Positions 7,444 through 55,978 of a stretch of DNA of 64,000 nucleotides are shown in pieces. Position numbers and translations under genes: made by a program. The notes beneath the pieces are model-generated. The model searched no databases and had not been told where the DNA came from. It was given only the letters and a program-made list of their open reading frames with translations. Positions within the stretch are counted from its first letter, which is position 1. Each line of letters begins with the position of its first letter. Source of the DNA: a virus. Lineage: Duplodnaviria; Caudoviricetes. Location of the stretch: the IMG/VR virus record IMGVR_UViG_3300028833_000065, one strand, 5' to 3'.

Positions 7444-7538
7444 CTTGACAGTGCGGAAATTTAGATGTATAACATCTAAAAATTTGAATTGACATTCTTA
7501 TTATTTAGTAGTATACTTACCTTGTTCTCAGGAAGGAG

Positions 7539-7847
7539 ATGACTATAATGAAGCGAATTGTTAAGAAGCGAATTGTCTTGTATTGCCCTTGGGAAGATGA
7601 AGAAATTATTGGCACAGAAGAGTATGATAGTTCCATACCAGACGAAGATATTCTTAATGCTTTACATGAACAGGGGAAGACTATGTGGCTTCCGACTTAT
7701 CCTGACTATGATGAACTTTGGCTTATGCTACCAGACAATGGTATAATGTTGCCACATTATAAGTTTGGTGTGGATGAATTTTATGTTCAGATACCGACAT
7801 TTTGGGATAAGATAAAAGATGCGCTGTTTGGACGGAAGGAGAGGTAA
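7539..7847 (+). CDS. Hypothetical protein (inverted cassette 1)
   Basis: Promoter TTGACA(7489)...TATACT and RBS GGAAGGAG. Confidence 0.7.
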   Translation: MTIMKRIVKKRIVLYCPWEDEEIIGTEEYDSSIPDEDILNALHEQGKTMWLPTYPDYDELWLMLPDNGIMLPHYKFGVDEFYVQIPTFWDKIKDALFGRKER

Positions 7848-7849
7848 AA

Positions 7850-8062
7850 ATGTTTAAAATTGGCGATAAAGTGATGATTGATAATGAGGAACGCTTAGTT
7901 GGTTATATTGTAAGTATAACCATTGACCCGTTGGAAGAATATAGTGTAAAGACAGAAACTGAGTTCAACTTTATTACTTATGTGGTTCGTGTCTTCAAGC
8001 CGTTTTATGTTAATGGATACTCGGACTTCTATCGTATGAGTGATGATTTGACAAGGGTTTAA
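7850..8062 (+). CDS. Small SH3/KOW-like hypothetical protein
   Basis: MFKIGDKV start; RBS GGAGAGG; terminator after. Confidence 0.65.
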   Translation: MFKIGDKVMIDNEERLVGYIVSITIDPLEEYSVKTETEFNFITYVVRVFKPFYVNGYSDFYRMSDDLTRV

Positions 8063-8132
8063 GGGCGAAAGCCCTTAAATTATTTTAGATGTATAACATC
8101 TAAAATAAAACAAGGCGGTTGCCCGCCTTATT

Positions 8133-8501
8133 TTAGCTATATAACTGACTGATAGCATTGCGCCATGCGATTTCCAACATTTCATATGGGTCTGCCCATT
8201 CTGCTCGGCCAGTATAATGATTAAGTTTTGTGATATCAATTGCGTTATATTCTTTTAAGTCCGCTTCATATGCGGCGAGAATATTACGCACATGCTCACG
8301 GCTTTCTTGTGCCTTTTTAAGTTCAACATCTTTTACGGGGCCATCTGGTAGCATGTTGGCGCAACCTTCATACTTAATAACCTGGGCGCATTTAGCAATA
8401 AGTTCGTTTCTATGCGCGCTGAGGTCAATGGTCAAACGCCTGTATTCGGTATCCTGAAAACTCCACCAAGTATCTTTTGTCTGTTCTTTCTTAAACAACA
8501 T
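8133..8501 (-). CDS. Hypothetical protein
   Basis: Fills one cassette with promoter, RBS and terminator. Confidence 0.7.
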   Translation of the reverse strand: MLFKKEQTKDTWWSFQDTEYRRLTIDLSAHRNELIAKCAQVIKYEGCANMLPDGPVKDVELKKAQESREHVRNILAAYEADLKEYNAIDITKLNHYTGRAEWADPYEMLEIAWRNAISQLYS

Positions 8502-8681
8502 TTATTTTTCCTTCTTTCTATTGTTCTTGGGAACAATGCTATTATAGCATATTATAGGAAAATTACAAGAAGAAGATTTAGATGTTTTACATCTAAATAT
8601 TCCTGTTGACTTCTCAATTAAATGGAGTATAATATAGCCATGAACTGAAGGAAAACAGTTGAAACCAGAAAGGGAAAGAAA

Positions 8682-9164
8682 ATGACGAAGTATCTGATTG
8701 TGCGGTGTGAAGAACTGATGGACCAGTATGAGTGCGATGCTAACCGTGAACCGATGTTTCTGGTGGATGATTGGACGAAATGGTATCAGGAAAATCATCC
8801 GAATTATCAGTTTGAAGTGTATAAGTTTGAAGATGATAAAGAATGTACTTTGGAAAAGACTTATGAAGAGTCTATGGATTATGGAATGGCATTATACTTC
8901 TGGAATATGGATGATAGCCATGAAGAAGTAGCGCCGACCGTAATTGCGCATTATAAGGGTTATAATCGCGATAAGAAAGTGCCTAATAAAGTGTGGAACG
9001 TTTTTCGACAGGGTGCTTACTGGGCAGACGGTGATGAATTTACTGAAAAGGACTTTAAGAATGACTTGAGAAGTTGCGGATATGTTGCTTGGGATGATAA
9101 GGAGCATAAGAAATTTTGGGTATATGGGTATTATGCGGACGGGCGCTATTGCTTGGGATATTAA
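8682..9164 (+). CDS. Acidic/aromatic hypothetical protein (inverted cassette)
   Basis: Promoter TTGACT(8606)...TATAAT and conserved leader at 8643-8673. Confidence 0.75.
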   Translation: MTKYLIVRCEELMDQYECDANREPMFLVDDWTKWYQENHPNYQFEVYKFEDDKECTLEKTYEESMDYGMALYFWNMDDSHEEVAPTVIAHYKGYNRDKKVPNKVWNVFRQGAYWADGDEFTEKDFKNDLRSCGYVAWDDKEHKKFWVYGYYADGRYCLGY

Positions 9165-9229
9165 GGAGCAAATGCTCCTTTTTCTTTTTTTAATTTTAGA
9201 TGTTTTACATCTAAAATAAAAAGGATGGT

Positions 9230-9490
9230 CTAAAACCATCCATAGAGAAGAGAAAGAAAATAAATATTAAGAACTACGCTTGACAGATGCATCAGAACAT
9301 CATTGATGTGCCGATGCTGTGAGAGGTCTTTACATACGCCGAAAAGCGCGATTGCGAGTCCGAACCATGAGACTTGAAGGCCGAAGAGCATAATCAGGAC
9401 TACATTCAAGATGGTAATTCCGCACCGAACATCATTCCATTCAAAGCGGTAAGGGGTTTCAATTCCGAACCAATTCTTAATCGTTTCCAT
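9230..9490 (-). CDS. Small membrane protein ending in a TAG stop
   Basis: Three hydrophobic segments; the TAG lies in the loop of a terminator hairpin. Confidence 0.7.
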   Translation of the reverse strand: METIKNWFGIETPYRFEWNDVRCGITILNVVLIMLFGLQVSWFGLAIALFGVCKDLSQHRHINDVLMHLSSVVLNIYFLSLLYGWF

Positions 9491-9510
9491 TTCTATTCTC
9501 CATTTTATTC

Positions 9511-9768
9511 TTATTCTTCAAACATACTAATCTGTTCTCCACCGAAGCGCCTGAGTACGACTTCTCTTACCTGTCTCTGGGCATCTTCGTTCCAACTATA
9601 ATAGTTTTCATCATCAAGACCCTTGACATATTCATCAATGGCATCATCCACGACTTGCGTGATAGTTGCTTTTCTTTCTTTCATCAGACGCTCACAACTA
9701 GCATAAATGTCGTCCATATCAATATTCGCGCAATGCCAACTTTCCCATTCAACTTCAATCCAATTCAT
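9511..9768 (-). CDS. Acidic hypothetical protein
   Basis: ORF with RBS AAAGGAG. Confidence 0.7.
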   Translation of the reverse strand: MNWIEVEWESWHCANIDMDDIYASCERLMKERKATITQVVDDAIDEYVKGLDDENYYSWNEDAQRQVREVVLRRFGGEQISMFEE

Positions 9769-10091
9769 TTTTTCGTTCTCCTTTCATAAGATGGCAACTT
9801 TTTCCGTATCAGGGAAAGTTGCCGAAACCTGCCCATCTCCTTCCTTGGGATTACGGGAATTCAATGGGAGCCCGTCAGTTCTCACCTTCCTAAGTCCATC
9901 CCAGTTCCTTGGAACAATTACATTATACTACGATTTTGGAAAATGTCAAGTATTTCTTTTTTATCTTTTTCTGTGAGTGTATCATACAATTCTCTTGCCG
10001 ATGGAGTGAGATAATCATAATGGACTAGGCCCAAAGCGCATAGACAACACAGTTCTTTTTCTTCGGAATTAATTGGAAATAATAGCATTTT

Positions 10092-10346
10092 TCAAACTCC
10101 ACACTTTTCAATTATTTCTTGCGGTTCAAGGTCGGAATGTGCGAGCCAACTAAGCGCACACATGATTGTATCCACATCAGTGATTTTTCCTTCTTGAATA
10201 CGATAGACAAGCATACGGTTGACTTCTTCAATTCTTTCGGCTTCTTTTTTAAGAACATTAGCTTTGTCCGTCATTCCCTGAAGAAGCTGAAATGCCAAGG
10301 TGGAGCAGTCGCAAATATCCATAGATTCAAACTTCATTTCACTCAA
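10092..10346 (-). CDS. Hypothetical protein
   Basis: First gene after the cassette promoter at about 10368-10395. Confidence 0.65.
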   Translation of the reverse strand: MSEMKFESMDICDCSTLAFQLLQGMTDKANVLKKEAERIEEVNRMLVYRIQEGKITDVDTIMCALSWLAHSDLEPQEIIEKCGV

Positions 10347-10671
10347 CTCCTTTCGTTGATGTGCTTATTATAGCATAGAGGAAAGGAACTGTCAAGAAAA
10401 TATATTTAGATGTTATACATCTAATTATCCGATAAAGGAAAAGCCACCCGTCGGTGGCTAAAGGCGCCGAGTGGAACGTTGCGCACCGCCCACTCTATTG
10501 AACTTTTCCTCACTTGTTTATCAGCCAGAAGGGAAAAAGTTTGAAAAGCTGAATCTGTCTGGAAAGGGGCTTTAAGGATAAACCCCTTAGAACCTCTCAT
10601 GGTTCTTGGCTATACGGAGCGCTTACGCATCAATTAAGGCGAGTCAGTTTTCGCCACCAAGAAGGGAAGGT

Positions 10672-10998
10672 TTACGCCTTGCGGTAGGTATTCGGCTTGC
10701 CCTCAATCTTGACGATTTCGTCCTGCCAGAGGTGGGTCAGAGCATACTGAACCTTGCCCTTGGTGATGCCCTCAGGAAGGCCATCGGCGATGGCTTCGTA
10801 GATTTCGCTACAAGTCGCAGGAGAATCGGAGAGGTTGCTGACCAGAAGGTCGTGGAAGGACTCATAGGCTTCAAGGTTTTTCGCCTTGGCATCGGTGCCA
10901 CGGTTGATTTCCTTGTCCAGTTCAGCGAGGATTTCGGCATTGTCATAGCCAAAGTCGGTCAGAGCGGTGCGGATGGTTTCAAAAATGGACTTCTTCAT
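10672..10998 (-). CDS. wHTH DNA-binding protein (paralog 1)
   Basis: PATCSEIYEAI...ITKGKVQYALTHLW...KPNTYRKA. Confidence 0.75.
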   Translation of the reverse strand: MKKSIFETIRTALTDFGYDNAEILAELDKEINRGTDAKAKNLEAYESFHDLLVSNLSDSPATCSEIYEAIADGLPEGITKGKVQYALTHLWQDEIVKIEGKPNTYRKA

Positions 10999-11268
10999 AA
11001 TTTAATTTCCTTTCTGGTTTTGTTAGGGTTTTCCTTCCCTCGATTTCGTATTCATTATAACATGGATTAGGAAGTTTGTCAAGAGGTTGCCGAAAATTTT
11101 CTCCCTTTTATTTTCGGTCATCGGCGAAGAGTCTTGCGTTTCCATGGAGCTTTGTTTCCGCTCTCTTGCTCCCTCTGACAGTTATCATTATACTCAATTC
11201 TGAAAAAAAGTCAACAATTTATTTTTAGATGTTTAACATCTAAAATATTTAATAAGGAAAAAGGGAGA

Positions 11269-11592
11269 TTACTCTCCCTTAATCCGGTAGGTGTTGGTCT
11301 TGCCGACAATCTTCTCAACTTCATCTGCCCAGTAGTTGGTCAGACCGTAAACAATCTTACCACGGGCGAACCCGGTTTCATCTGCGATTTCCTGAGCAGA
11401 AACGGGAAGGGATGCGGACTTCAGAACTTCCATGACCGCATCGTGCATCTCTGCGTAAACCTTGCGGTTGGCATCGGCCTTTTCCTTGCCACGTTCAAGT
11501 TCGGCGGTCAGTTCGGAGAGAATGTCCATCATGTAATCATCATTCTTTTCGGTGAGGTAGGAGACGAGAGACTGGAGAGTGGACTTCTTCAT
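11269..11592 (-). CDS. wHTH DNA-binding protein (paralog 2)
   Basis: PVSAQEIADETGFARGKIVYGLTNYW...KTNTYR; start reassigned to MKKSTLQ after the conserved leader. Confidence 0.75.
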   Translation of the reverse strand: MKKSTLQSLVSYLTEKNDDYMMDILSELTAELERGKEKADANRKVYAEMHDAVMEVLKSASLPVSAQEIADETGFARGKIVYGLTNYWADEVEKIVGKTNTYRIKGE

Positions 11593-11890
11593 AATAATTA
11601 CCTTTCTGGTTTGTTGAGGTTTTCCTTCCTCTGTTGTGTATTCATTATAGCACCTTTGTGCTAGAATGTCAAGGGCTTTTAAAAATTTTGTTCCGAGGTT
11701 ATGGATGTTTGAAATCCACATTTTCCTACATTTTCTCGTTTGGCGCCTTCGGGAAGTGTATTTCCTTCTGTTGGGATTCTCACCTTGTCCCTCGGAACAA
11801 TTGTATTATATGCTAATTTAGGATTTTTGTCAACTACTTATTATTAGATGTATAACATCTAAAAATATTTTAGAATAAAAAAGTATCTCG

Positions 11891-12877
11891 TCAAGCGAGA
11901 TACTGAGCAAGTTCGGCGATAGTATTTTCAAGTCGTGTTGTATACTTAGAAGGTTCTTTATTCTGAAGATAGTTCTGCATTGCGGCAATAACAATTACAA
12001 TTTCATTCGCATCGGGACGCTTCTTTCTCAGAACAAATTCATCTGTTGTTCCGAGTTCACGGAAGGGGAAGAAGATAATTCCGTTAGAGATTGCCGCCTT
12101 TTTAGCAATCTTACTAAGAATGTATGTTTCAATGATAGCATCGTCAAGAGCGGTATGTGCTTCATCAAAATCATACTTGTCGGTCAGATAACGATAAGAT
12201 GCTTCTGCGCTTGTCTTGAAGAATGTTCCGCTTGCGGTAAGCATATCATTCTGAAGGCACTGCTTCTTGTAGGTGGCATTGTTCAGAAGATGCTTTGCGG
12301 CAAGTCCCCAAAGGTCAAACAGAGGGAAGACTTCACCATGGAAACGAAAGATATCTGCTTCAAAATCTTTATCGGGGTCTTTCTGATAGCGTTCATTTGC
12401 GATTTTAGCGCACAGATAACGCTGAGACTGTTCCCATTCAAAATAATCAGGGCTATACAGTTTATTGATATAGAGGTCCGTGAAGGGAATTGCTTTCTTA
12501 AAGTCGAACATACTATTGTATGCTCCGACCGCATCAACCGTGCGGAAGTCTTCCATCATGATTTCAACGACTTCGCGCCAAGGCTTGATAACGGTCTTCT
12601 TTTCTTCAAGCATCTTCAAATAGATTGGGCGCTTTTCCGCATAATATGCGGTATTGAATACGGCAGGAACAGAGAAAGTTTCGGCGATAAGAAACTGTTT
12701 CTTATCCAGAAGTTCGCCCTTGCGATTTGTGATAGTCCATCCAATATCATAGATGAGCGGGCGAGCGATAGCAATCTTCTTTTTCTTTTCCGGGTCATGG
12801 TTGGCGACTTCATCGGCGAACGGGAGGGTAGCGGACTCACAGTCAAGGGTAGCATAACGATTTTCTCTACGGGCCAT
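11891..12877 (-). CDS. DEDDh 3'-5' exonuclease family protein
   Basis: LDCES (ExoI), AYNSMFD (ExoII), EAHTALDD (ExoIII). Confidence 0.85.
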   Translation of the reverse strand: MARRENRYATLDCESATLPFADEVANHDPEKKKKIAIARPLIYDIGWTITNRKGELLDKKQFLIAETFSVPAVFNTAYYAEKRPIYLKMLEEKKTVIKPWREVVEIMMEDFRTVDAVGAYNSMFDFKKAIPFTDLYINKLYSPDYFEWEQSQRYLCAKIANERYQKDPDKDFEADIFRFHGEVFPLFDLWGLAAKHLLNNATYKKQCLQNDMLTASGTFFKTSAEASYRYLTDKYDFDEAHTALDDAIIETYILSKIAKKAAISNGIIFFPFRELGTTDEFVLRKKRPDANEIVIVIAAMQNYLQNKEPSKYTTRLENTIAELAQYLA

Positions 12878-13015
12878 ATCTAATCAATTCCTTTCTGGTT
12901 TTTAAGTGTTGCCTTCACTTTATGGGTAGATTATACCATCGGTTATGGTTGCTGTCAAGCGGCATTATTAGATGTAAAACATCTAAAATAGAAAAATGGG
13001 GCAAAGCCCCATTCT

Positions 13016-13192
13016 TTATTCATCTTCCACTTCGGTAATGCCCTCAACTTCACAATAGCGCGTGAACATATCACGGGCGAATTCTTCAATAGCATCAAGG
13101 TCAATTTCTTCTCCGAGTTCAACTGCGCTCTGGATTGCGGAAAAAGCAACGATACTCATCATGTGGTCTGCGGTGTTCATACTAATAGTCAT
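13016..13192 (-). CDS. Small acidic protein (58 aa)
   Basis: MTISMNTADH...EVEGITEVEDE, behind the conserved leader at 13201-13230. Confidence 0.6.
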   Translation of the reverse strand: MTISMNTADHMMSIVAFSAIQSAVELGEEIDLDAIEEFARDMFTRYCEVEGITEVEDE

Positions 13193-13235
13193 AATAAAAT
13201 CCTTTCTGGTTTGAAGTGTTTTCCTTCACTATATT

Positions 13236-13415: not shown

Positions 13416-13429
13416 ATTTATACCCTTTC

Positions 13430-13804: not shown

Positions 13805-13973
13805 AATTTTTTCCTTTCTGGTTTGAGTTGTTTTCCTTCAACTTTCAATGATATTATAATCCATTCTAGGAAAATGTCAAGCATTAACTTTTAGATGTTT
13901 AACATCTAAAATATAAGTTGACATTTTTTTTGAAATGGTATATACTATCGGTGTTGAAAGGAAGGTGCCAATT

Positions 13974-14474: not shown

Positions 14475-14537
14475 GAGCAACTTTTTATTATTAGATGTAT
14501 AACATCTAAAATAGAAAGGTAATGGGAATAAATCCCA

Positions 14538-14768
14538 TTATCTCATATCAACAACCATGAAGTCATCATTTTCCCAAATCTGACCGTAGTTCTTATCTAC
14601 AAAATCAAACTTTTCTTCTTTTGCTTCGGTAAGCAAGGCCGCCATGCGGTTCTGGAGTTCTTCCTTCTTTGCTTTGCGGGCGCAAATAGCGCGAAGTTCG
14701 GTGATGATATCACGAAGTTCCTGTGTGGTCATGATGTCGGTATCAATAATAACTTTTCCAATTCTCAT
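14538..14768 (-). CDS. Hypothetical protein (paralog of 19914-20168)
   Basis: Shared DTD...EL..IIT.LR.I.ARK...EL motif. Confidence 0.7.
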   Translation of the reverse strand: MRIGKVIIDTDIMTTQELRDIITELRAICARKAKKEELQNRMAALLTEAKEEKFDFVDKNYGQIWENDDFMVVDMR

Positions 14769-14785
14769 TTTTATACTTCCTTTCA

Positions 14786-15034
14786 TTAATCAATAGGGCG
14801 GTTCAATTCTACTTCTTCAATGTAATAAACGCAAGGTGCTATATAATCATTACCTAATGTCTCGTATTCATAGCCATCAAAAGTAAATTCAAACTTTTTC
14901 ATTTCCTCTTCGGTGTAATCCTCTGCTACACGCTCAAGAATTGCTTTCTGTGCTTCGGCGAGAGAAGAATAAACTCCGTCGCCCCAATGCTCATAAGGTT
15001 CAATAATGAATTCTTTTACTGTAAATACCGTCAT
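14786..15034 (-). CDS. Acidic hypothetical protein
   Basis: ORF with RBS AAAGGAG after the cassette promoter. Confidence 0.7.
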   Translation of the reverse strand: MTVFTVKEFIIEPYEHWGDGVYSSLAEAQKAILERVAEDYTEEEMKKFEFTFDGYEYETLGNDYIAPCVYYIEEVELNRPID

Positions 15035-15145
15035 CTCTTACATCTCCTTTCGACATCATGAATTATAGCATAAGATGGAAAAGAAGTCAAAGCATTTATT
15101 TAGATGTCAAACATCTAAACCATATTTCGGGATTCAATCCCGAAA

Positions 15146-15436
15146 TTATTTTTCTTTCTTTTTCTTTGCCATCTTTTCTTCAAATTCTTCCTTATACAGT
15201 TCTGCATTGGCATACCCATCATAAGGAATGTATCCACCCTCACCATTACGAGTACCACGAGGAGTAGAAACTTTAATAACAATCCATCTCTCGTTTCCTT
15301 CTGCGTCTACGCAAGGAATAGCAAGTTCATTGGCACTTACGGGAAGTACATCAGTGTCATACTGCTTGGACAGAAGTTCCTGAATAGAATTGAGATATTC
15401 AGAGCGCAGAAGGGTTTCAAGCTGAGTTTTATTCAT
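15146..15436 (-). CDS. Hypothetical protein (paralog of 18081-18440)
   Basis: NELAIPCVDAEGNER...KVSTPRGTRNG shared. Confidence 0.75.
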   Translation of the reverse strand: MNKTQLETLLRSEYLNSIQELLSKQYDTDVLPVSANELAIPCVDAEGNERWIVIKVSTPRGTRNGEGGYIPYDGYANAELYKEEFEEKMAKKKKEK

Positions 15437-15729
15437 TTACTTTCATCCTTTCGTTAGTCATTAAGAAACATGTAAGAAAATATCAGAAGCATAAAGCCAA
15501 CTATCACAAGGAGAAGAAACGCAGGAATAAAAACACCCCAAATAATTCCCCAAAGCATCAGAATTCCGGCAAGGGCATCTGCTATGTTCATACCGTCATC
15601 TCCTTCCTTTTGACAAGTATATTATAACATAATTTTGAAAAAAGTCAATTATTAAATTAGATGTTTAACATCTAAAAATTCTATTGCTTTTTTCTTGGAA
15701 AGTGATATAATACGCATGAGGTGATAAAG

Positions 15730-16203: not shown

Positions 16204-16276
16204 ATCCGCATTCCTTTTATTTTAGATGTTTTACATCTAAAATTAAATAAAAGAAAAAAAGGGGATATATCCCCTT

Positions 16277-17041
16277 TTATTCTTCTTCAACACCAGTAAA
16301 ATTGATAACATCTTTGCGAGTAATCTTTTTCAGATATGTGCCCTTGAACACAACTTCTTTATCAAACTTAATTGTGAAGGGCTTGGGCGCGACCCGTTCC
16401 AGAATGCGCTTTACTTCATAATCAGTATTCCACTTTGCGCCGAGAGTATCAATACAATAAGTCAGAATAGCGGTTTCAATGTCTACATCATACAGACCCA
16501 TATGCGCTTCTTCAAAAGTATCATCTTCGGCAATATACCTATAAACAACTTCTGCGCTTCCTTTGTAGTTGCCTGTATCAGTAAAGTAATTATTAATCTC
16601 GCAATAGTGCTGATATTGTGGAGTATTTGTAATGTATTGCGAAGCATAGCCCCAAATGTCATGGATAGCGATAGTATCAAAAGGATTAATACACTTGAAC
16701 CAGTCGCAATTAAAGGAGATAACTTTGTCATCAAAGTTGGAGTTGTAGGCATACGCATCAGTGATACCATACTTCTGAATATCACGATGAATCTCACGCA
16801 TTACATAGCCCCACTTGTCCATCGTGGCCTTGTGCTGGCGCATAAGCTGAACATACTGAGGACGCTTCTGAGCATAGTATGCTGATTCAAACAGCGGAAG
16901 GTTGTGCCAAATCTGCTCAATAACAAAGTGCTTGCGCTCAACCGTCATGTGCTGACAGGTGTCATACACGCAGTATCCGATATCATAGCAAAAGGGCTTG
17001 TCCAGACCAGTAGTTTCCGTGTCCATAATCATTACATTCAT
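16277..17041 (-). CDS. DEDDh 3'-5' exonuclease family protein (paralog of 11891-12877)
   Basis: MDTETTG, AYNSNFD, EEAHMGLYD. Confidence 0.85.
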   Translation of the reverse strand: MNVMIMDTETTGLDKPFCYDIGYCVYDTCQHMTVERKHFVIEQIWHNLPLFESAYYAQKRPQYVQLMRQHKATMDKWGYVMREIHRDIQKYGITDAYAYNSNFDDKVISFNCDWFKCINPFDTIAIHDIWGYASQYITNTPQYQHYCEINNYFTDTGNYKGSAEVVYRYIAEDDTFEEAHMGLYDVDIETAILTYCIDTLGAKWNTDYEVKRILERVAPKPFTIKFDKEVVFKGTYLKKITRKDVINFTGVEEE

Positions 17042-17177
17042 ATAAGTACCTTTCTGGTTTGATTTGTGGTATCCTTCCACTTCATTGCGTTCCGAGGAAC
17101 AAGTGTATTATATCATATTCTGGGAAAAATACAAGAAGAATATTTAGATGTTATACATCTAAGAAATAAAAATGGAA

Positions 17178-17627
17178 TTACTCCGCATGGAGTAATTCCG
17201 CCAGAACTGACAGAATGTCAGAAGGTTCATATGCTTCGCCAGTCCAGTCGTTTCTGATTTCTTCATTATCATCAAACAGAATGTCATTTTCCGTTTTCAG
17301 GAAACTCTGCTTTGGTGTGCCATAGTCTACAATTTCCATGATATCAAATGAAACTGAGGTCAGATGCTGATGAAGCCAGTCCATTTTTGCGTTTGCCACT
17401 GCTTCATTGTATTCAGCGTTTCCATCCTTAGAAGTCCAGCTGATGATACCGATGCCGTAGCCATGACTTTGGAGCTTATTCAGATACCGAGCAAGCAGAC
17501 TCATGTTCAGCATGACGGCCGCTTCTTCGTAGGGTGTAGGGTCAAAAGCACGCAGACGGGGAAGCCAATTCTCTACCGAATACAGGTCGGCGATTGTTCC
17601 ATCCATATCAAACCAAATCATTCTCAT
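17178..17627 (-). CDS. HAD-family 5'(3')-deoxyribonucleotidase-like protein
   Basis: WFDMDGTIADLY, IISW, K, ILFDD. Confidence 0.8.
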   Translation of the reverse strand: MRMIWFDMDGTIADLYSVENWLPRLRAFDPTPYEEAAVMLNMSLLARYLNKLQSHGYGIGIISWTSKDGNAEYNEAVANAKMDWLHQHLTSVSFDIMEIVDYGTPKQSFLKTENDILFDDNEEIRNDWTGEAYEPSDILSVLAELLHAE

Positions 17628-17755
17628 TTTCTTTCTCTCTCTTTCTGTTCCCTTGGAACGAGTATATAATAGCATAGTTTTGGGAAAAGGTCAAGTAATA
17701 AAATTTAGATGTTTAACATCTAAAAATCATAATCAAATGCGGCAAGGCCGCATTT

Positions 17756-17950: not shown

Positions 17951-18080
17951 TTTAATTCCTTTCTGGTTTTATGGAGTATCCTTCTCCTTTCAACACCGAT
18001 ATCATATCATAGTTTTAGGAATTGTGCAAGTATATATTTTAGATGTTATACATCTAAGAATTAAGAAGAAATGAAACCGC

Positions 18081-18440
18081 TTATGCGGTTTCCTTTTCCT
18101 TTTCCTTTTCGGCGCGCTTCTGCTTATCGCGCTCAATCTTCTCCTGCTTCTTCTTTTCGGCGGCGGCCTTCTTTTCCTTCTTCTCTTCTACTTCCAGTGC
18201 GTATGCCTCAGCGGCGGCATACGCATCATACGGGTCATAGCCGTTGCCGTTGCGAGTGCCACGAGGGATAGAAACCTTAAAGACCACAAAGCGCTCATTG
18301 CCCTCAGCGTCCACGCAGGGAACGGCCAGCTCGTTGGAGCTTACAGCGAGAGCATCAGCATCGCAAGCATTGGACAGGGCATTAGACAGGATAGTAAGAT
18401 ACTGTTCACGCAGGGCATTCTCAAGTTCGGTTTTAGTCAT
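18081..18440 (-). CDS. Hypothetical protein (paralog of 15146-15436)
   Basis: Same core motif as 15146-15436, with a K/E-rich tail. Confidence 0.75.
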   Translation of the reverse strand: MTKTELENALREQYLTILSNALSNACDADALAVSSNELAVPCVDAEGNERFVVFKVSIPRGTRNGNGYDPYDAYAAAEAYALEVEEKKEKKAAAEKKKQEKIERDKQKRAEKEKEKETA

Positions 18441-18580
18441 AATTTTTTCCTTTCTGGTTTCTGAGGTGTCCTTCCTCTTTACAGTTAGTATTATACTCTG
18501 ATTCGGGATAAAGTCAAGTATTAGTTTTTAGATGTTTTACATCTAAAAATTAAAATAAAATAAGTCGGATGTTATCCGAC

Positions 18581-18784
18581 TTATCGTTCTAAAATATCAT
18601 AAATCTTCAAAATCTGTTCAACAGTAGGAATATCCTTGTCTCTACAAGTAATAGTGAAACGGATAGTATCAGAAGAAATGCTAGGCTTGAAATCTTCAAC
18701 GCTACATCCAACACGATCAACGACGGTATTCATAATATACCGTCCAATCTGGTTGCGAGGAACATAATAGCTGCGAGTAATCAT
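18581..18784 (-). CDS. Hypothetical protein
   Basis: RBS GGAGG; last gene of a multi-gene cassette. Confidence 0.6.
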   Translation of the reverse strand: MITRSYYVPRNQIGRYIMNTVVDRVGCSVEDFKPSISSDTIRFTITCRDKDIPTVEQILKIYDILER

Positions 18785-19105
18785 CTTTCAATCCTCCAAT
18801 TCAAATCTTGATAATTCGTTGGCAATAATTTGATTTGCCCAAATTAGTCTTTTATAAAAACTAAAATCATCGGGAGCATCGACGAGTAATTCTATTAAAG
18901 CTTTGTGGAGTTCTGCTTTTTCTTTACGCTGTTCTTGCGTCATTATTCCCAATCCTTTCCCTTATACTTCGGTTTCTTAAAACGCTTATCTGGAATAACT
19001 TTGGTCGCGGGATTTACATTGCCCCAAGTCTTACGCTCGCTCTGGAATACTTCCACCCAAGTTTTGGTTTTCTTGGTCTTTTTCATTTTCAACCGCTCCT
19101 TCTTA

Positions 19106-19369
19106 TCAATCAAGTGGCGCTTCAATCCAACTGTATTCGCCCCATTCGCCATAGTCAAGAATCCATTCAATGTAATCTTCCCATGCCTGTTCCCGTTCAT
19201 CTTCCGCATATTCGCGGTCTTCTGTCCAGTAGAGAAAGTCTCGTTCTTCAGAATAATAATGGTCATTCATATACTTATGGCACTGCTGACGAATAGGTTC
19301 AATAGAAGTATAAACATGGTCGGGTTCACCCTGATAGGACAGAACATATACAACTTTACTCATACTCAA
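19106..19369 (-). CDS. Acidic/aromatic hypothetical protein
   Basis: First gene after the cassette promoter. Confidence 0.65.
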   Translation of the reverse strand: MSMSKVVYVLSYQGEPDHVYTSIEPIRQQCHKYMNDHYYSEERDFLYWTEDREYAEDEREQAWEDYIEWILDYGEWGEYSWIEAPLD

Positions 19370-19479
19370 TTGCTCCTTTCCTTATTGACAAGATAATTAT
19401 AACATAATTTAAGTAAAAGTCAAATATTTATTTAGATGTATAACATCTAAAAAATATAAAGTTGGCGCATATGCCAACT

Positions 19480-19791
19480 TTAACAGTCATCAGTATAGCA
19501 ACCTGCATACGGGTCAAATCCCATTTCAATATCGTATTCTGGTTCTTCGTATCCAAAGTGTCCCTTGGCCCATTCAATTTCTTCTTCTGAGAAATCTTCT
19601 TTCTCATCGCTGGGCGCATCAGCTTGTTCCCATTCTTCCCAGCTTGTCCATACACTAAGCCAGTCATCACAGTCCTCGCAAGGGTCATCAACATGGCATA
19701 CGCCATTCTTATCGCAGTAGGGGCAATCCCAACCGTTCACGGGGCAATAGGTGAGTTCACCGTTATAAGTTCCGGCCTTACTATCTCTCAT
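19480..19791 (-). CDS. Acidic Cys-rich hypothetical protein
   Basis: CPYC...CEDC; C-terminal GFDPYAGCYTDDC. Confidence 0.7.
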   Translation of the reverse strand: MRDSKAGTYNGELTYCPVNGWDCPYCDKNGVCHVDDPCEDCDDWLSVWTSWEEWEQADAPSDEKEDFSEEEIEWAKGHFGYEEPEYDIEMGFDPYAGCYTDDC

Positions 19792-19913
19792 TTTAGTCCC
19801 TCCTTTGTTCCTCTTGGAACTGTGATAATGATATCATACTTTGATAGAAAAAGCAAGAGAGTATTTTAGATGTATTACATCTAAAATGGAAGAAGCTGGG
19901 AAACCCAGCTTGC

Positions 19914-20168
19914 TTACTGAACCATGATTTCCATCAGCGTACCGTCGTAGTTTTCCAGCCCATAAACGCCCAGATGCAGCTCGCGTGCTTCCGCCAGCAG
20001 CTCGTTAAACTGGTTGTTCAGCTCCTGCGCACGATGCTTGCGCGCACGAATCTTACGCAGACCAGTAATAATCTGGTCAAGCTCTTCAATGGAGAGGTCA
20101 TCGGTATCAAAAGACACAACAGCGGACACGGGGTTGACGATTTCACTCAGTTTCTTTTCGGGTTTCAT
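19914..20168 (-). CDS. Hypothetical protein (paralog of 14538-14768)
   Basis: Shared helical motif; fills one cassette. Confidence 0.7.
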   Translation of the reverse strand: MKPEKKLSEIVNPVSAVVSFDTDDLSIEELDQIITGLRKIRARKHRAQELNNQFNELLAEARELHLGVYGLENYDGTLMEIMVQ

Positions 20169-20287
20169 AATCTTACTTCCTTTCGTGAGGTGATGGTTAT
20201 ATTATACTCAGATTTTAATTTTTGTCAAACATTTATTTTAGATGTAATACATCTAAAAATTATACACGGGATATTATCCCGTGGAAT

Positions 20288-20596
20288 TTACTTCCAAATT
20301 GTTTTTCCGTTTTCAGTAAACAACGACTGATTGCGGTCAACACGTTTGCGCAGATAGGGCGGAATTTTCTTTGTTCCATTGTATACAGCTACCAGCTCAC
20401 GGAAGGTAGTTACATACATTGTAATCACTTTCAGCTTGTCCTCTGTTTTTACCAGCGTAATACCAGTGTCGGTGATACACAGATAAACGCCGTTCTGATA
20501 CTTTTCGCGCACAACCTGCCCCAAGCCAATATCATTGATAATATGCTGTACCCGGTTCGCTCTTTGTACTTCGCAGTGATAAGTCATTGTTGTCAT
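20288..20596 (-). CDS. Hypothetical protein
   Basis: Fills one cassette; RBS GGAGG. Confidence 0.7.
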   Translation of the reverse strand: MTTMTYHCEVQRANRVQHIINDIGLGQVVREKYQNGVYLCITDTGITLVKTEDKLKVITMYVTTFRELVAVYNGTKKIPPYLRKRVDRNQSLFTENGKTIWK

Positions 20597-20713
20597 GGTT
20601 CATACCTCCTTTTGATGGTGTAAGTATATCATAAAATGGGAAAATTGTAAAGAGTAATTTTTAGATGTTTTACATCTAAAAACTATAATGAAATAAGCGC
20701 CAAGGCGCTTATT

Positions 20714-20935
20714 TTACATGATTTCATCAAAAGCCAAGTCAAGCCAATCATCATTTACCATACTCGCAAATTCAGATACCAGCTTGCGCAGAATAGCTCC
20801 AGCCTGCTCATCACTCATCTTGGTCAAATCCAGCCCAACATGCTTTTTCAGCCGCCGCATCAGGAGCTTGAGCATGTCGCAGTAAGTGTATTCTTTGTCA
20901 TCTTCTTCAAAGTAAACAGTCGCATTGAGTTCCAT
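20714..20935 (-). CDS. Hypothetical protein
   Basis: Fills one cassette; conserved leader at 20944-20973. Confidence 0.7.
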   Translation of the reverse strand: MELNATVYFEEDDKEYTYCDMLKLLMRRLKKHVGLDLTKMSDEQAGAILRKLVSEFASMVNDDWLDLAFDEIM

Positions 20936-21079
20936 ATTTTAGTCCTTTCTGGTTTGGGAGGTTGTCCGTCCTCTTTACAATTAGTATTATATTCATTTTA
21001 GGAAAAAAGTCAAGTAATATTTTTTAGATGTATAACATCTAAAATTATAATGAAATAAAGGGATTTCTCCCTTTATTTA

Positions 21080-21325
21080 TTAATCCAAATATCCATGGAG
21101 TTCTACATATGAAATTCTATTATTAATAGGATTAATAGTGCGCTGTGCTTTCCGCCCCAGCCTTTCTTCCAGCTTGGCGAGTTCTTCTTCAGCTTCCTTT
21201 ACGGACACAGTGTTAGCAAGTTCCAGCTTGCAGTCCTCTACGCATACGTAGATAGTAGCGCAAGAGATAGAAGGCTTGTCTTCGAAATAGGTAATCATTA
21301 CACTCATATAAGTATTATACTTCAT
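21080..21325 (-). CDS. Hypothetical protein
   Basis: Start reassigned to MKYN after AAAGGAG. Confidence 0.65.
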   Translation of the reverse strand: MKYNTYMSVMITYFEDKPSISCATIYVCVEDCKLELANTVSVKEAEEELAKLEERLGRKAQRTINPINNRISYVELHGYLD

Positions 21326-21450
21326 TGCCGTTTCTCCTTTCGTGTCCCTCTTAGGAACAACTATATTATACTCCAATTTGAAAAAAAGTCAAACATTATT
21401 TTTAGATGTATTACATCTAAAAAACATAAAAGGGGAAAATTCCCCTTTTA

Positions 21451-21723
21451 TCATTCAATTTCACCAGTATAAATATTATACTTGACATTATCATTATAAA
21501 TCTTTTTTGCCAACTGGTAAGTCATGCCGCGCTCGCGCATGAACCAACCGATGTGTTTGATGGTTGTCATGCTGTACAGTCCATTGACGATCATCCAGCC
21601 TTCCGGGTCAATCTCAATAACGGTAGTGGTGTAGCTTACCAGTTGAACAGTACCGTCCTCAAATGTCCGAACGTAGGTGCTTGCATACTTGTGACCATTG
21701 TTAAGCGATACAGTGTAATTCAT
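21451..21723 (-). CDS. Conserved phage hypothetical protein
   Basis: LVSYTTTV...YSMTTIKHI motif. Confidence 0.7.
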   Translation of the reverse strand: MNYTVSLNNGHKYASTYVRTFEDGTVQLVSYTTTVIEIDPEGWMIVNGLYSMTTIKHIGWFMRERGMTYQLAKKIYNDNVKYNIYTGEIE

Positions 21724-21868
21724 GTTTCAATCCTTCTTTCTTTTATTTCGTTCCCCTTGGAACATCTATAGTATACTGCCATTCGGGAAAAATGTCAACA
21801 GTAGTTTTTAGATGTATTACATCTAAAATTAAAATGAAATAATAGGTCCCGTTTCGGGACCTATGGAA

Positions 21869-22024
21869 TTATTCATAATACTCAACGATGTCCCAACCGC
21901 CGGACCAAATTCCGCCAAAGTGTGCGTTGTCCTCTACCCATGCCGCCGCGGCACTGATGGTTTTGAATCCATCTTCAATAATGATGTTCCATTCGATGCT
22001 TACAATACGATAGCGCTTCTTCAT
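21869..22024 (-). CDS. Small hypothetical protein
   Basis: Fills one cassette. Confidence 0.6.
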   Translation of the reverse strand: MKKRYRIVSIEWNIIIEDGFKTISAAAAWVEDNAHFGGIWSGGWDIVEYYE

Positions 22025-22146
22025 CGTTCTTACTTCCTTTCTTTTTGTGTTCCCTTGGAACAACTATATAATACACCATTTTGGGATTTGTGTCAACTTT
22101 TATTTTTAGATGTAATACATCTAAAATTAAAATGAAATACAACGGG

Positions 22147-22401
22147 TTATGTGCCCGTTGTTTTTGGTTGTGGGAAAAGCCGCTGACGCAAATTGATTGT
22201 ATCTTTAAGTTCATTTAATTTTGAAATTGCGGTTTTATGCGAAGAATAATCGATATCAATGCGATTATGGATATAGGTTCCGGGAACTAAATAAATTACT
22301 AAAGTAGAATTATAATATTCCTTTTTTGAATTGAAATTATCAACCACTTTGGCGAAAGTTATACTATTTTCGCTAAACATCATTTCTTCAAAGATAATCA
22401 T
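22147..22401 (-). CDS. Hypothetical protein
   Basis: RBS AAAGGGG; terminator after. Confidence 0.55.
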   Translation of the reverse strand: MIIFEEMMFSENSITFAKVVDNFNSKKEYYNSTLVIYLVPGTYIHNRIDIDYSSHKTAISKLNELKDTINLRQRLFPQPKTTGT

Positions 22402-22757
22402 AATATATCCCCTTTCGGGACGGCGGATTATTCCGCCGTCAAATTCGTCTTAGTGTAATAGAGATTGAAATTACCGTATTCTACGGAACAAGGGTCAGTG
22501 ATATCATCATAACCATTTTCTTCGGCATCGGTATAGAGTTCGGTTTCGGGAACGATGTAACCATTTTCTTTGTGCATCCAATAATAGTTTTTCATTTTGT
22601 AATTCCTTCCTTTCTTGTCCCTTCGGACAAGTGTATTATACTACTTTTAGGAAAAAATGCAAGTTTCATTTTTAGATGTTTTACATCTAAAAAACGAAAA
22701 AATAAAATTGAAACAAAAATATAAAGGTTGATATACTCAACCTTTATATATTAATAT

Positions 22758-23027
22758 TTAATGTTGATTATCATATCGCATTAGAATTACATTAGAATAA
22801 TGTGTTAAATATGTTATGCCTTCAATGGTAACCTGCACAACATCTGATTCATCAAAGTCGCGCCAATTGTCAATTTTACCTTCAATCATTTCACCGTTAT
22901 GTAAGATAATGATTGCTTCGTCAAAGCTTTGCTTAAAGTCAAGACCAATTTGACGATTCCCAAGAGAGCAACCTGTCATCATTAGAACACTAATCAGTAA
23001 TAGGGCAATAAGAATAACTTTTTTCAT
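22758..23027 (-). CDS. Lipoprotein
   Basis: Signal peptide with lipobox MMTGC. Confidence 0.75.
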   Translation of the reverse strand: MKKVILIALLLISVLMMTGCSLGNRQIGLDFKQSFDEAIIILHNGEMIEGKIDNWRDFDESDVVQVTIEGITYLTHYSNVILMRYDNQH

Positions 23028-23137
23028 AACGATTACTTCCTTTCTGTCCTTTGGACAAATATATTATAACATTTTTTAAAAATATTACAATGCTTCTTTT
23101 TAGATGTATTACATCTAAAATATAAAAGGTGTATTGC

Positions 23138-23446
23138 TTAGCAATACACCAATTCCATTGTAGACCATTTAAGAATACTAATCTGTTTATGTTCGCGCCC
23201 GATACGAAGCGCTTCTTTCTTTGTGCTAACACGGAAACTATGGTCAATATAGTAAATACCTTCACTATACCAGATGCCGCAGCTTCCCTCGTACAGCTTT
23301 ACAGCTTGCATAGCAGCTTCCGGTGTAGCAGCTTCCATGCCGTAGTCGGCTACCTGGTAGCCGCTCTTATATGACACAATACGTCCGTTCTTCAGTGTAA
23401 GCCCATCGTTGTTGCTCAGTTTTCGCATGGTCCGAATGTTAATCAT
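23138..23446 (-). CDS. Hypothetical protein
   Basis: Fills one cassette; RBS GGAGG. Confidence 0.7.
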   Translation of the reverse strand: MINIRTMRKLSNNDGLTLKNGRIVSYKSGYQVADYGMEAATPEAAMQAVKLYEGSCGIWYSEGIYYIDHSFRVSTKKEALRIGREHKQISILKWSTMELVYC

Positions 23447-23906
23447 TGTTTGAACCTCCATTCCTTTGATGTGTATAGTATACTAAACTATGACAGAAAA
23501 AGCAAGAGAGGATTTTAGATGTCTTACATCTAAAAAAAATACACTGCCATTAGATATGGCAGTATAATCATTATTATACAATTTCAAGTGCATTCATATA
23601 TACTTCTTCAGCTTCCCGCATATTCCATACTGCGATCATCTTATTGATAATAGTATAAATATTCTTCTTTGCCATTGCGTACATTTTCATCATTATTATT
23701 TCCTTCTTTCTATTAGTTGTGTTCATCAAGAACACCTATATTATACGCCTTTTTCTAGACATGTCAAGGCAAGTTTTTAGATGTGATACATCTAAAAAAT
23801 AAATATATATTTTTATAACTATTATAATAAATAATATATTTTATTATGTTTATAAAAATATATGTATATGAGTATAACATATATAAAAGAGGCTTATTAT
23901 CGCCTC

Positions 23907-25467: not shown

Positions 25468-25547
25468 CTCGGGGCATGCCCTCCCCAAATTCCACCAACT
25501 TTTTTAAAAATGAACCTTAAAAAATAAAACTTATTAAACTCAAATAC

Positions 25548-25577: not shown

Positions 25578-25603
25578 TAAAATAAAGGAGGTGTTGCAAT
25601 CAA

Positions 25604-55956: not shown

Positions 55957-55978
55957 GAGATAAAAGGAGGAATTTATC

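What the first reader, a model, noticed from the sequence alone, without database searches (positions are those of the whole stretch)
7461..23795. Array of 28 gene cassettes delimited by an invariant palindrome: candidate phage integron/shufflon-like system
Seen: 29 intergenic copies of TTAGATGT-NNN-ACATCTAA with no mismatch in the 8-bp arms and a variable centre (ATA, TTT, TAT, TTA, AAA, CAA, ATT, AAT, CTT, GAT). They are spaced about 260-1210 bp apart and I saw none outside this 16.3 kb. Each interval is a self-contained unit: a sigma-A promoter whose -35 lies about 8-10 bp from the site, 1-4 small genes, a terminator, then the next site. Known: T4-type PeSL elements and integron attC arrays shuffle small-gene modules, but this motif matches neither. 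Inference: the site is a recombination/insertion point, or a hairpin with a 3-nt loop, that lets the phage acquire, duplicate and reorder early host-takeover or anti-defence genes. An alternative is a phage-encoded regulator or DNA-organising protein binding near -54. No recombinase is visible in this window.
Basis: partly seen in the sequence, partly recalled or inferred. Interest (0 to 1): 0.95.

Follow-up and report, generated by a model that had tools for sequence, protein, structure and literature searches.

The report
Palindrome-bounded early gene cassettes in phage
A large gut/rumen phage that reads TAG as glutamine carries about 28 small early-gene units, each bounded by the same perfect 19-bp palindrome; the palindrome most likely binds a symmetric DNA-binding protein that works with the early promoters, and it is also the point where whole units are lost, gained and swapped between related phages.

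Summary
There are 29 exact copies of TTAGATGT-N3-ACATCTAA at 7461-23795, none degenerate and none elsewhere in the window (0 expected by chance). The same site forms arrays of 8-41 copies in about 30 IMG/VR contigs. These are 130-190 kb TAG-recoded siphophages whose terminase is distantly SPbeta-like.

- **Tied to promoters.** The site sits 9 nt upstream of the -35 of sigma-A-type promoters in about 83% of cases. Its distance to terminators is loose.
- **One per junction.** Promoter-less convergent junctions also carry a site, and those sites are just as perfect.
- **Breakpoints.** Whole-cassette indels between close relatives cross over inside the palindrome arms. Homology blocks with distant relatives end at its edge 16 times more often than chance.
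- **No dedicated recombination machinery.** Three complete relatives have no tyrosine, serine or HUH recombinase. Cassette orientation never flips (0 of 422), and shared cassettes are 88% collinear.

Best reading (about 0.5): an operator or boundary site for a symmetric DNA-binding protein, which also provides portable short homology for PeSL-like cassette turnover. A multi-copy winged-helix family encoded in the array is a candidate binder, unproven. This is not an integron or a shufflon. The scan had already noted this same stretch in an overlapping window.

The parts
7461..23795 (.). Early-gene array: 28 transcription units bounded by 29 palindromes; 24 units on the minus strand and 4 on the plus strand
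7461..7479 (.). Palindrome 1 (centre ATA). Left edge of the array, with a plus-strand promoter 9 nt to its right
8085..8103 (.). Palindrome 2 (ATA). Convergent junction with a terminator on each side and no promoter
8578..8596 (.). Palindrome 3 (TTT). Shared by divergent promoters, 9 nt from each
9196..9214 (.). Palindrome 4 (TTT). Convergent junction, no promoter
10406..10424 (.). Palindrome 5 (TAT). Minus-strand promoter to the left (10 nt), terminator to the right
11225..11243 (.). Palindrome 6 (TTA). Promoter to the left, terminator to the right
11844..11862 (.). Palindrome 7 (ATA). Promoter to the left, terminator to the right
12968..12986 (.). Palindrome 8 (AAA). Promoter to the left, terminator to the right
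13891..13909 (.). Palindrome 9 (TTA). Shared by divergent promoters
14491..14509 (.). Palindrome 10 (ATA). Convergent junction, no promoter. Left breakpoint of the cassette that relative B lacks
15100..15118 (.). Palindrome 11 (CAA). Promoter to the left, terminator to the right. Right breakpoint of the cassette that relative B lacks
15657..15675 (.). Palindrome 12 (TTA). Shared by divergent promoters
16222..16240 (.). Palindrome 13 (TTT). Convergent junction, no promoter
17144..17162 (.). Palindrome 14 (TAT). Weaker promoter to the left, terminator to the right
17705..17723 (.). Palindrome 15 (TTA). Promoter to the left, terminator to the right
18039..18057 (.). Palindrome 16 (TAT). Weak promoter to the left, terminator to the right
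18528..18546 (.). Palindrome 17 (TTT). Promoter to the left, terminator to the right
19432..19450 (.). Palindrome 18 (ATA). Promoter to the left, terminator to the right
19866..19884 (.). Palindrome 19 (ATT). Weak promoter to the left, terminator to the right
20238..20256 (.). Palindrome 20 (AAT). Promoter to the left, terminator to the right
20661..20679 (.). Palindrome 21 (TTT). Promoter to the left, terminator to the right. Left breakpoint of the second cassette that relative B lacks
21024..21042 (.). Palindrome 22 (ATA). Promoter to the left, terminator to the right. Right breakpoint of that cassette
21402..21420 (.). Palindrome 23 (ATT). Promoter to the left, terminator to the right
21808..21826 (.). 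Palindrome 24 (ATT). Promoter to the left, terminator to the right
22106..22124 (.). Palindrome 25 (AAT). Promoter to the left, terminator to the right
22672..22690 (.). Palindrome 26 (TTT). Promoter to the left, terminator to the right
23100..23118 (.). Palindrome 27 (ATT). Promoter to the left, terminator to the right
23515..23533 (.). Palindrome 28 (CTT). Weak promoter to the left. Relative A carries one extra cassette of about 336 bp at this site
23777..23795 (.). Palindrome 29 (GAT). Right edge of the array: consensus minus-strand promoter to the left, AT-rich spacer to the right
10672..10998 (-). 108-aa winged-helix protein, a candidate binder of the palindrome. It belongs to a family present in 1-4 copies per array in relatives
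11054..11082 (-). Consensus sigma-A promoter (12 of 12) without a palindrome, directly upstream of the winged-helix gene
11269..11721 (-). Second winged-helix paralogue. The ORF is called with an N-terminal extension; the family alignment places the real start at MKKSTL, downstream of the palindrome-less promoter
11644..11672 (-). Consensus sigma-A promoter (12 of 12) without a palindrome, upstream of the second winged-helix gene
6298..6789 (-). 163-aa protein just outside the left edge of the array. Its C-terminal region aligns with the winged helix of the family above

Best explanation
The palindrome is most likely a high-affinity recognition site for a symmetric, probably dimeric, sequence-specific DNA-binding protein. 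The two 8-bp half-sites are centred 11 bp apart, which is one helical turn. The site occupies about -45 to -63 of the early sigma-A promoters and marks every gap between early transcription units. From there the protein would control the whole early array at once. The most likely effects are shut-off or silencing of the palindrome-linked promoters, and insulation of neighbouring units from one another, for example by roadblock or by looping between sites. Because the same perfect 19-mer stands at every boundary, it is also the preferred crossover point for short-homology recombination and replication slippage. Whole promoter-gene-terminator units are therefore deleted, duplicated and exchanged between co-infecting relatives, as with T4-type PeSLs, without a dedicated recombinase. 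A candidate binder is the array-encoded winged-helix family (window 10672-10998, 11269-11721, and distantly 6298-6789). Shown: the site, its geometry, its conservation, its breakpoints, and the absence of canonical recombinases. Inferred: protein binding, the direction of the regulatory effect, and the identity of the binder.
For: (1) Geometry. The -35 starts 9 nt from the site in 484 of 591 promoter-linked sides and in 423 of 508. The bases in between are not conserved, so the spacing itself is under selection. The distance from terminator to site is loose, 0-19 nt. (2) Sequence recognition rather than pairing. The spacer is always 3 nt. The arms are invariant in 29 of 29 window sites and in 791 exact copies against 133 copies with 1-3 mismatches in the relatives' fetched DNA. 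Lineage variants (A3G, A5G) change half-sites semi-independently and hybrid sites are common, which fits two independently read half-sites. (3) One relative has four sites in tandem at a 21-bp period at the edge of its array. (4) The site occurs only in the early array of complete 167-190 kb relatives. It is absent from host-like chromosomal contexts, which points to a phage-encoded partner. (5) No tyrosine, serine or HUH recombinase was found, there are 0 orientation flips in 422, and collinearity is 88%. (6) Crossovers map inside the arms, and homology-block ends pile up at the site edge. (7) Candidate binder. The AlphaFold2 model has pLDDT 91. Its residues 34-108 align to Fur/PerR/Zur, Zalpha, PadR and MarR winged helices with Z 8-9.9 and rmsd 1.6-2.2 A. 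The conserved block is the recognition helix and wing. The family occurs in 1-4 copies in every well-covered array of the window's group, and related copies occur in divergent site-bearing phages. Of the strong promoters directly upstream of winged-helix genes, 51 of 54 lack the site, against 166 of 554 for other genes. This is what one would expect of a regulator exempt from its own control. (8) Precedents for many-copy phage operators exist: SPBRE/MrpR (PMC10516654) and stoperators (PMC6550527).
Against: No binding protein is demonstrated. Promoter-less terminator|terminator sites are at least as perfect as promoter-linked ones (34 of 36 against 382 of 440), so a purely promoter-proximal operator cannot explain them. 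About a third of strong promoters in the arrays (217 of 608) lack the site. A centre near -54, upstream of consensus promoters, is an unusual position for simple steric repression. The near-total invariance is stronger than in most operator sets. The winged-helix family was not detected in every site-bearing contig, and it sits in variable, multi-copy cassettes. Pfam and PHROGs give it no name.
Confidence: 0.5

Rival explanations
1. The palindrome is a dedicated site-specific recombination site, integron- or shufflon-like. A phage enzyme cuts and rejoins at the palindrome to insert, excise or invert cassettes.
For: There is one site per junction whatever the junction type, including promoter-less convergent junctions that are kept perfect. 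Whole-cassette indels have crossovers inside the arms. Tandem cassette duplications occur and about 12% of shared cassettes are out of order. A weak RuvC-like hit lies at 62216-62992.
Against: Five relatives' full records, three of them complete, gave no Phage_integrase, Resolvase or Y1_Tnp match. They also have no MrpR-like recombinase-fold protein. A symmetric site should insert or invert cassettes in both orientations, yet 0 of 422 cassette instances are flipped. The centre triplet varies freely, unlike a crossover core that must match. The 9-nt spacing to the -35 has no role in recombination. Gene indels also occur inside cassettes away from any site.
Confidence: 0.1
2. The palindrome is a passive structural or homology element with no dedicated binding protein. 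It would be part of a composite terminator-promoter module, like a PeSL stem-loop, whose hairpin acts as an extra two-way transcription stop or simply as portable homology.
For: It always lies in the untranscribed gap just after the terminator T-tract. As single-stranded DNA it folds to a 10-bp stem with a 3-nt loop at -6.5 kcal/mol, z about -7. PeSLs in T4-type phages combine a sigma-70 promoter with a stem-loop and mediate the same kind of shuffling (PMC2839356, PMC4122927).
Against: A hairpin needs pairing, not a fixed sequence. Here the arm sequence is invariant, and hybrid half-sites that would give an A-C mismatch on one strand are tolerated. The site lies beyond the terminator and upstream of the promoter, so little RNA should contain it. 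It is followed by A, not by a T-tract. Its position is tied to the promoter and not to the terminator.
Confidence: 0.15
3. The palindrome is a boundary or topological element bound by a host factor, for example a gyrase- or nucleoid-protein site like REP/BIME elements. It would isolate 28 strongly transcribed units from each other's supercoiling and read-through.
For: There is exactly one site in every inter-unit gap, including convergent ones. The units are dense, strong and differently oriented. The statement that REP elements sit between operons and bind gyrase and IHF is from my own knowledge and was not tested here.
Against: The site is not found in host-like chromosomal contexts among 185,579 species genomes. 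That scan gave only chance singletons and small phage-like contigs binned into metagenome-assembled genomes (MAGs). The exact 9-nt spacing to the -35 argues for a contact with RNA polymerase. Divergent junctions need no insulation, yet they keep a site 8-9 nt from both promoters.
Confidence: 0.15

Closest known systems
PeSL (promoter-early stem-loop) cassettes of T4-type phages (PMC2839356, PMC4122927)
   Same: Both are dense arrays of small early ORFan genes in a hyperplastic region. Each unit has a strong sigma-70-type promoter and a terminator stem-loop. Indels and replacements between relatives end at the repeated motif, and no dedicated recombinase is involved.
   Different: PeSLs are degenerate composite motifs whose stem-loop is the terminator itself and sits at variable positions. 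Here a separate, invariant 19-bp perfect palindrome sits at a fixed 9 nt from the -35, and it also occurs alone at promoter-less junctions. The hosts are Firmicutes-type and the phages are TAG-recoded siphophages. Mini-circles could not be tested.
SPBRE sites bound by the master repressor MrpR in Bacillus phage SPbeta (PMC10516654)
   Same: A conserved repeated element stands in many intergenic promoter regions of a large siphophage. The window's terminase is distantly related to the SPbeta group, at 31-37% identity.
   Different: SPBRE has about 10 copies and a different sequence (ATACA..TGTAT type), and it overlaps the -10/+1 region. MrpR has a tyrosine-recombinase fold, and no homologue was found in the relatives. 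SPbeta is temperate. No integrase or integrated copy was seen for this group.
Stoperators of cluster A mycobacteriophages (PMC6550527, PMC9283540)
   Same: There are 20-30 copies of one short site spread through intergenic gaps. Most are not in promoters, and lineage-specific variants of the motif exist.
   Different: Stoperators are asymmetric 13-bp sites oriented with transcription, bound by a monomeric repressor during lysogeny, and spread over the whole genome. Here the site is symmetric, confined to the early array, and held at a fixed distance from promoters.
Integron attC cassette arrays
   Same: A cassette array with a palindromic element at each boundary, and cassette-level gain and loss.
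   Different: Integron cassettes are promoterless and co-oriented behind the Pc promoter. attC sites are long, imperfect and variable. An IntI tyrosine recombinase is required. None of these holds here.
Shufflon (R64 sfx repeats with the Rci recombinase)
   Same: A 19-bp repeat flanks short DNA segments, and some segments lie inverted.
   Different: Shufflons invert actively through Rci and reshuffle one gene's 3' ends. Here no tyrosine recombinase was found and orientation is fixed across the phage family.

Membership tests
Integron | IntI-type tyrosine recombinase encoded next to the array | tested here: not met
   No Phage_integrase (PF00589) match in 5 relatives' full records, 3 of them complete. 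None was found in the window.
Integron | Promoterless, co-oriented cassettes expressed from a common Pc promoter | tested here: not met
   Each unit has its own sigma-A promoter and terminator, and 4 of 28 units lie on the other strand.
Integron | attC sites: imperfect, length-variable palindromes with conserved core sites only | tested here: not met
   The site is a perfect 8-3-8 palindrome of fixed length with invariant arms.
Shufflon | Rci-type recombinase and ongoing inversion between repeats | tested here: not met
   No tyrosine recombinase was found. There are 0 orientation differences among 422 cassette instances in families seen in 3 or more genomes.
PeSL-like modular cassettes | Repeated composite of a strong sigma-70-type early promoter plus a stem-loop terminator, in a region rich in small ORFans | tested here: met
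   The array proteins have almost no Pfam or PHROG match.
PeSL-like modular cassettes | Indel and replacement endpoints between related phages fall in the repeated motif | tested here: met
   Three whole-cassette indels have crossovers in the arms. 56 of 314 homology-block ends lie at the site edge, against 1.1% expected.
PeSL-like modular cassettes | Mini-circles formed by exchange between neighbouring motifs | not testable with these tools
Multi-copy phage operator set (SPBRE or stoperator type) | One short conserved site repeated in many intergenic gaps of one phage genome, with lineage-specific variants | tested here: met
Multi-copy phage operator set (SPBRE or stoperator type) | A cognate sequence-specific DNA-binding protein encoded by the phage | tested here: inconclusive
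   A winged-helix family is encoded in the arrays and has a distinctive promoter arrangement. Binding to the site is not shown.
Multi-copy phage operator set (SPBRE or stoperator type) | Binding changes transcription initiation or elongation | not testable with these tools
   This needs expression data or reporter assays.
Winged-helix DNA-binding proteins (for the candidate binder) | H1-S1-H2-H3-wing fold with a conserved recognition helix | tested here: met
   The AlphaFold2 model has pLDDT 91. VIA-align gives Z 8-9.9 and rmsd 1.6-2.2 A over 61-73 residues to PerR, Zur and Fur, with Zalpha, PadR and MarR below. All top Foldseek rows are winged helices, but at E 0.01-0.1.

The most novel reading that the evidence does not exclude
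The palindrome and its binding protein form a previously undescribed 'boundary operator' system. A protein bound at every gap between units brackets each early unit, by looping or roadblock, so that the array is switched and insulated as a set of standard parts. The same protein-DNA complex, or a new kind of nuclease acting on it, actively promotes exact exchange of whole units between phages. This would be a recombinase-independent functional analogue of an integron for phage early, anti-defence genes.
Probability: 0.15. Interest if true: 0.85.

Novelty: new variant of a known kind. Interest (0 to 1): 0.6.

Why it matters
Early 'ORFan' regions hold much of a phage's host-takeover and anti-defence repertoire, and how they turn over so quickly is poorly understood outside T4-type phages. 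This system is unusually clean. An invariant 19-bp mark defines about 860 natural promoter-gene-terminator units in some 30 uncultivated rumen and gut phages, with base-level breakpoints. If a single protein reads this mark, it would be a master switch for a whole early programme in TAG-recoded phages of Clostridia-type hosts. It would also be an easy handle for cataloguing mobile early genes, and a ready-made orthogonal operator and insulator part for use in Firmicutes.

Tried and rejected
- **GenBank phages.** Megablast of the array and of the late region against INPHARED gave no match. Only a protein-level terminase search placed the phage.
- **Whole genome.** No genome is held for this window.
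- **Virion RNA polymerase hairpin promoter (N4/crAss-like).** Rejected. The 4588-aa ORF is a tape measure protein. The search for T7-type RNA polymerase was uninformative, because its controls did not ring either. Good sigma-A promoters are present.
- **ParB/KorB-like or HU/TF1-like binder.** ParB_N and Bac_DNA_binding were not found in 5 relatives.
- **HTH_3 proteins.** Present in only 3 of 5 relatives, so not a universal partner.
- **MrpR homologue.** None found. The search had no positive control.
- **Host transcription-factor site.** The scan of 185,579 species genomes gave roughly the number of singletons expected by chance, plus small phage-like MAG contigs. A conserved copy in Neobacillus and Bacillus is an unrelated 5'-leader hairpin.
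- **Small conserved K/E-tailed protein (18081-18440, 15146-15436) as binder.** The model is confident, but it has no informative fold match.
- **Two most conserved array proteins.** They carry DEDDh exonuclease motifs and are not regulators.
- **Homodimer prediction for the winged-helix protein.** No verdict. This is not evidence either way.
- **Half-site linkage.** Comparing half-site types across a cassette and within a site did not discriminate.
- **phAss-1.** Its first 26 kb has no repeated palindrome, so the architecture is not general to TAG-recoded siphophages.
- **Literature search for the motif itself.** Nothing relevant.

Full report
**Observation.** The window holds 29 exact copies of TTAGATGT-N3-ACATCTAA between 7461 and 23795, against 0 expected. 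Allowing up to three mismatches adds no copies. Only three lone half-sites lie outside the array. The flanks show a regular layout. Reading the plus strand, most gaps run as follows: gene start, -10, -35, 8-10 nt, palindrome, a few A/T bases, then the terminator hairpin of the next minus-strand unit.

Consensus scans agree with this layout. There are 54 terminator-like hairpins against 12.5 expected, and nearly all promoters matching 11-12 of 12 positions lie beside a palindrome. Four units lie on the plus strand. As a result, four sites sit between two terminators with no promoter (8085, 9196, 14491, 16222), and three sites are shared by divergent promoters (8578, 13891, 15657). Three consensus promoters inside cassettes have no palindrome (-35 at 9949, 11082, 11672).

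**What the genome is.** From about 25.6 kb onward, long reading frames appear only when TAG is read as an amino acid. These include a 4588-aa tape measure protein, a terminase and a portal. The array genes read the same in the standard code. The terminase is 31-37% identical to those of Geobacillus E3, Enterococcus H1, phAss-1, Brevibacillus Sundance and SPbeta-like Bacillus phages. The phage is therefore a large, long-tailed, TAG-recoded siphophage of a Firmicutes-type host.

Small contigs in metagenome-assembled genomes (MAGs) of Acutalibacteraceae, Oscillospiraceae and Clostridia carry the same site-plus-promoter pattern. They look like binned phage fragments, so they give only a weak host hint.

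**Relatives.** The exact site occurs in 112 stretches of IMG/VR contigs. These stitch into arrays of 8-41 sites spanning 4-20 kb in about 30 contigs of up to 190 kb. In the three relatives that CheckV rates complete, all sites lie in one array. Some lineages use symmetric variants (TTAGGTGT..ACACCTAA, TTGGATGT..ACATCCAA). Hybrid sites are common in those lineages, and the spacer is always 3 nt.

**Coupling to promoters.** Across the phage family, the -35 starts exactly 9 nt from the palindrome in 484 of 591 promoter-linked sides and in 423 of 508. The intervening bases are not conserved. The distance from the terminator to the palindrome ranges over 0-19 nt. The site is therefore positioned relative to RNA polymerase, with its centre near -54.

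Two facts complicate this picture. Sites flanked by terminators on both sides are as perfect as promoter-linked ones (34 of 36 against 382 of 440). And 217 of 608 strong promoters in the arrays have no site. The rule that best describes the data is 'one site in every gap between units', with the site placed precisely wherever a promoter adjoins it.

**Recombination.** Three contigs are 91-97% identical to the window.
- Relative B lacks exactly the cassettes 14491-15100 and 20661-21024.
- Relative A has one extra cassette at the site at 23515.
- In each of these junctions the centre triplet comes from one parental site and the flank from the other, which places the crossover inside or right beside an arm.
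- Other indels lie inside cassettes away from any site.

Against distant relatives, 56 of 314 homology-block ends fall within 3 bp of a palindrome edge, where 1.1% is expected. Clustering 864 cassettes gave 420 nucleotide families. Non-close genomes share only 5-11 of the window's 28 cassettes. Shared single-copy cassettes are 88% collinear (848 of 960), and tandem duplications occur. Orientation relative to the array backbone never differs: 0 of 422 instances in families seen in three or more genomes.

**Recombinases.** No match to Phage_integrase, Resolvase or Y1_Tnp was found in five relatives' full records. There is also no ParB_N, no HU and no MrpR homologue. A symmetric site acted on by a dedicated enzyme should give both cassette orientations, and that is not seen. 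Together with the fixed promoter spacing, this argues against an integron- or shufflon-like machine. It favours short-homology recombination or replication slippage at a perfect 19-bp repeat, as proposed for T4-type PeSLs (PMC2839356, PMC4122927).

**Who reads the site.** The array proteins are almost all without Pfam or PHROG matches.
- **Most conserved array proteins.** These are two paralogues with DEDDh exonuclease motifs and a protein with a HAD-like phosphatase motif.
- **Small K/E-tailed family.** It has no informative fold match.
- **Winged-helix family of about 108 aa.** Window members are 10672-10998 and 11269-11721. The model is confident (pLDDT 91). Residues 34-108 align with the DNA-binding winged helices of PerR, Zur and Fur at Z 8-9.9, with Zalpha, PadR and MarR below. 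The family's conserved block is the recognition helix and wing.
- **Distribution of that family.** It occurs in 1-4 copies in every well-covered array of the window's group. A related family (window 6298-6789) reaches the divergent site-bearing phages.
- **Promoter arrangement.** These genes sit behind a consensus promoter that lacks the palindrome, with a palindrome-linked promoter 130-150 nt further upstream. Of strong promoters proximal to winged-helix genes, 51 of 54 lack the site, against 166 of 554 for other genes.

This arrangement would suit a regulator that escapes its own control. It is circumstantial: binding was not and could not be tested here.

**Comparison with known systems.** PeSLs share the promoter-plus-terminator cassette logic and the breakpoints, but they have no separate invariant palindrome. 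SPBRE/MrpR (PMC10516654) and mycobacteriophage stoperators (PMC6550527) show that one protein can read 10-30 sites in a phage genome. Those sites differ in sequence, symmetry, position and distribution: the SPBRE sequences I read in SPbeta overlap the -10/+1 region. Integron and shufflon membership fails on the tested defining features. phAss-1, another TAG-recoded siphophage, has no repeated palindrome in its first 26 kb, so the feature is specific to this group.

**Verdict.** The cassette-boundary reading is right, and the dedicated-recombination reading is not supported. The most likely mechanism is a protein-read operator or boundary site that also serves as portable homology (confidence about 0.5). 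This is a new variant of known kinds, with an unidentified binder and an unexplained requirement for a perfect site even at promoter-less junctions.

Noticed in passing
window 25604-61786: The late genes are open only if TAG is read as an amino acid (code 15). They include a 4588-aa tape measure protein (39920-53686), a 1940-aa ORF (55964-61786), a terminase and a portal. The early array reads the same in the standard code. No tRNA gene lies in the window.
   Followed up: partly
window 25311-25467: A cluster of 10 perfect and 2 one-mismatch DnaA boxes lies within 157 bp, between the array and the late operon and next to an AT-rich tract (23796-24000). It may be a DnaA-dependent origin, or a T5-like injection-stop region. 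The ORF called at 25296-25814 over it is probably spurious.
   Followed up: partly
window 16277-17080 and 11891-12877 (minus strand): Two paralogous proteins carry DEDDh (DnaQ-like) exonuclease motifs (DTET..., N..FD, H....D). They are the most widely conserved array genes, found in 32 of 36 contigs. An early nuclease function seems possible.
   Followed up: partly
window 17178-17675 (minus strand): A conserved early protein with a HAD-like FD.DGT motif, possibly a nucleotidase.
   Followed up: no
window 18081-18440 and 15146-15436 (minus strand): A paralogous small protein family with a lysine/glutamate-rich C-terminal helix, present in most site-bearing phages. The model is confident (pLDDT 90) but matches no known fold.
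   Followed up: yes
L080 9255-9336 (IMG/VR 3300021400_000113): Four palindromes stand in tandem at a 21-bp period at the edge of that phage's array, directly upstream of its first array promoter. This is the only such cluster seen.
   Followed up: partly
L085 about 4248-4300 (IMG/VR 3300033463_002846): A perfect Gram-positive LexA-type box (CGAACATATGTTCG) lies between a degenerate and a perfect palindrome, upstream of a promoter.
   Followed up: no
L134, L142, L144, L145, L149, L159, L187 and other Bacillaceae loci: An identical 19-bp palindrome is conserved in one 5' leader of Neobacillus and Bacillus genomes, between a promoter and a ribosome-binding site that repeats AGATGTC. It looks like an unrelated RNA leader hairpin.
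   Followed up: partly
window about 27772-27780 against L104 10726-11629: The closest relative carries an insertion of about 900 bp inside the terminase-region genes, possibly an intron or a homing element.
   Followed up: no
window 62216-62992 (minus strand, code 15): A weak RuvC-like Holliday-junction resolvase match (E 5e-4), with a dUTPase next to it at 62965-63756.
   Followed up: no
window 25604-26911 (code 15): The first gene of the late operon matches a PHROG annotated as sigma factor, plus HNH-like zinc-finger families. It is conserved in all site-bearing groups, including the divergent ones.
   Followed up: no
window 9922-9949 and family-wide: About a third of strong sigma-A promoters inside the arrays (217 of 608) have no palindrome. 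What distinguishes the genes they drive, apart from the winged-helix family, was not examined.
   Followed up: partly
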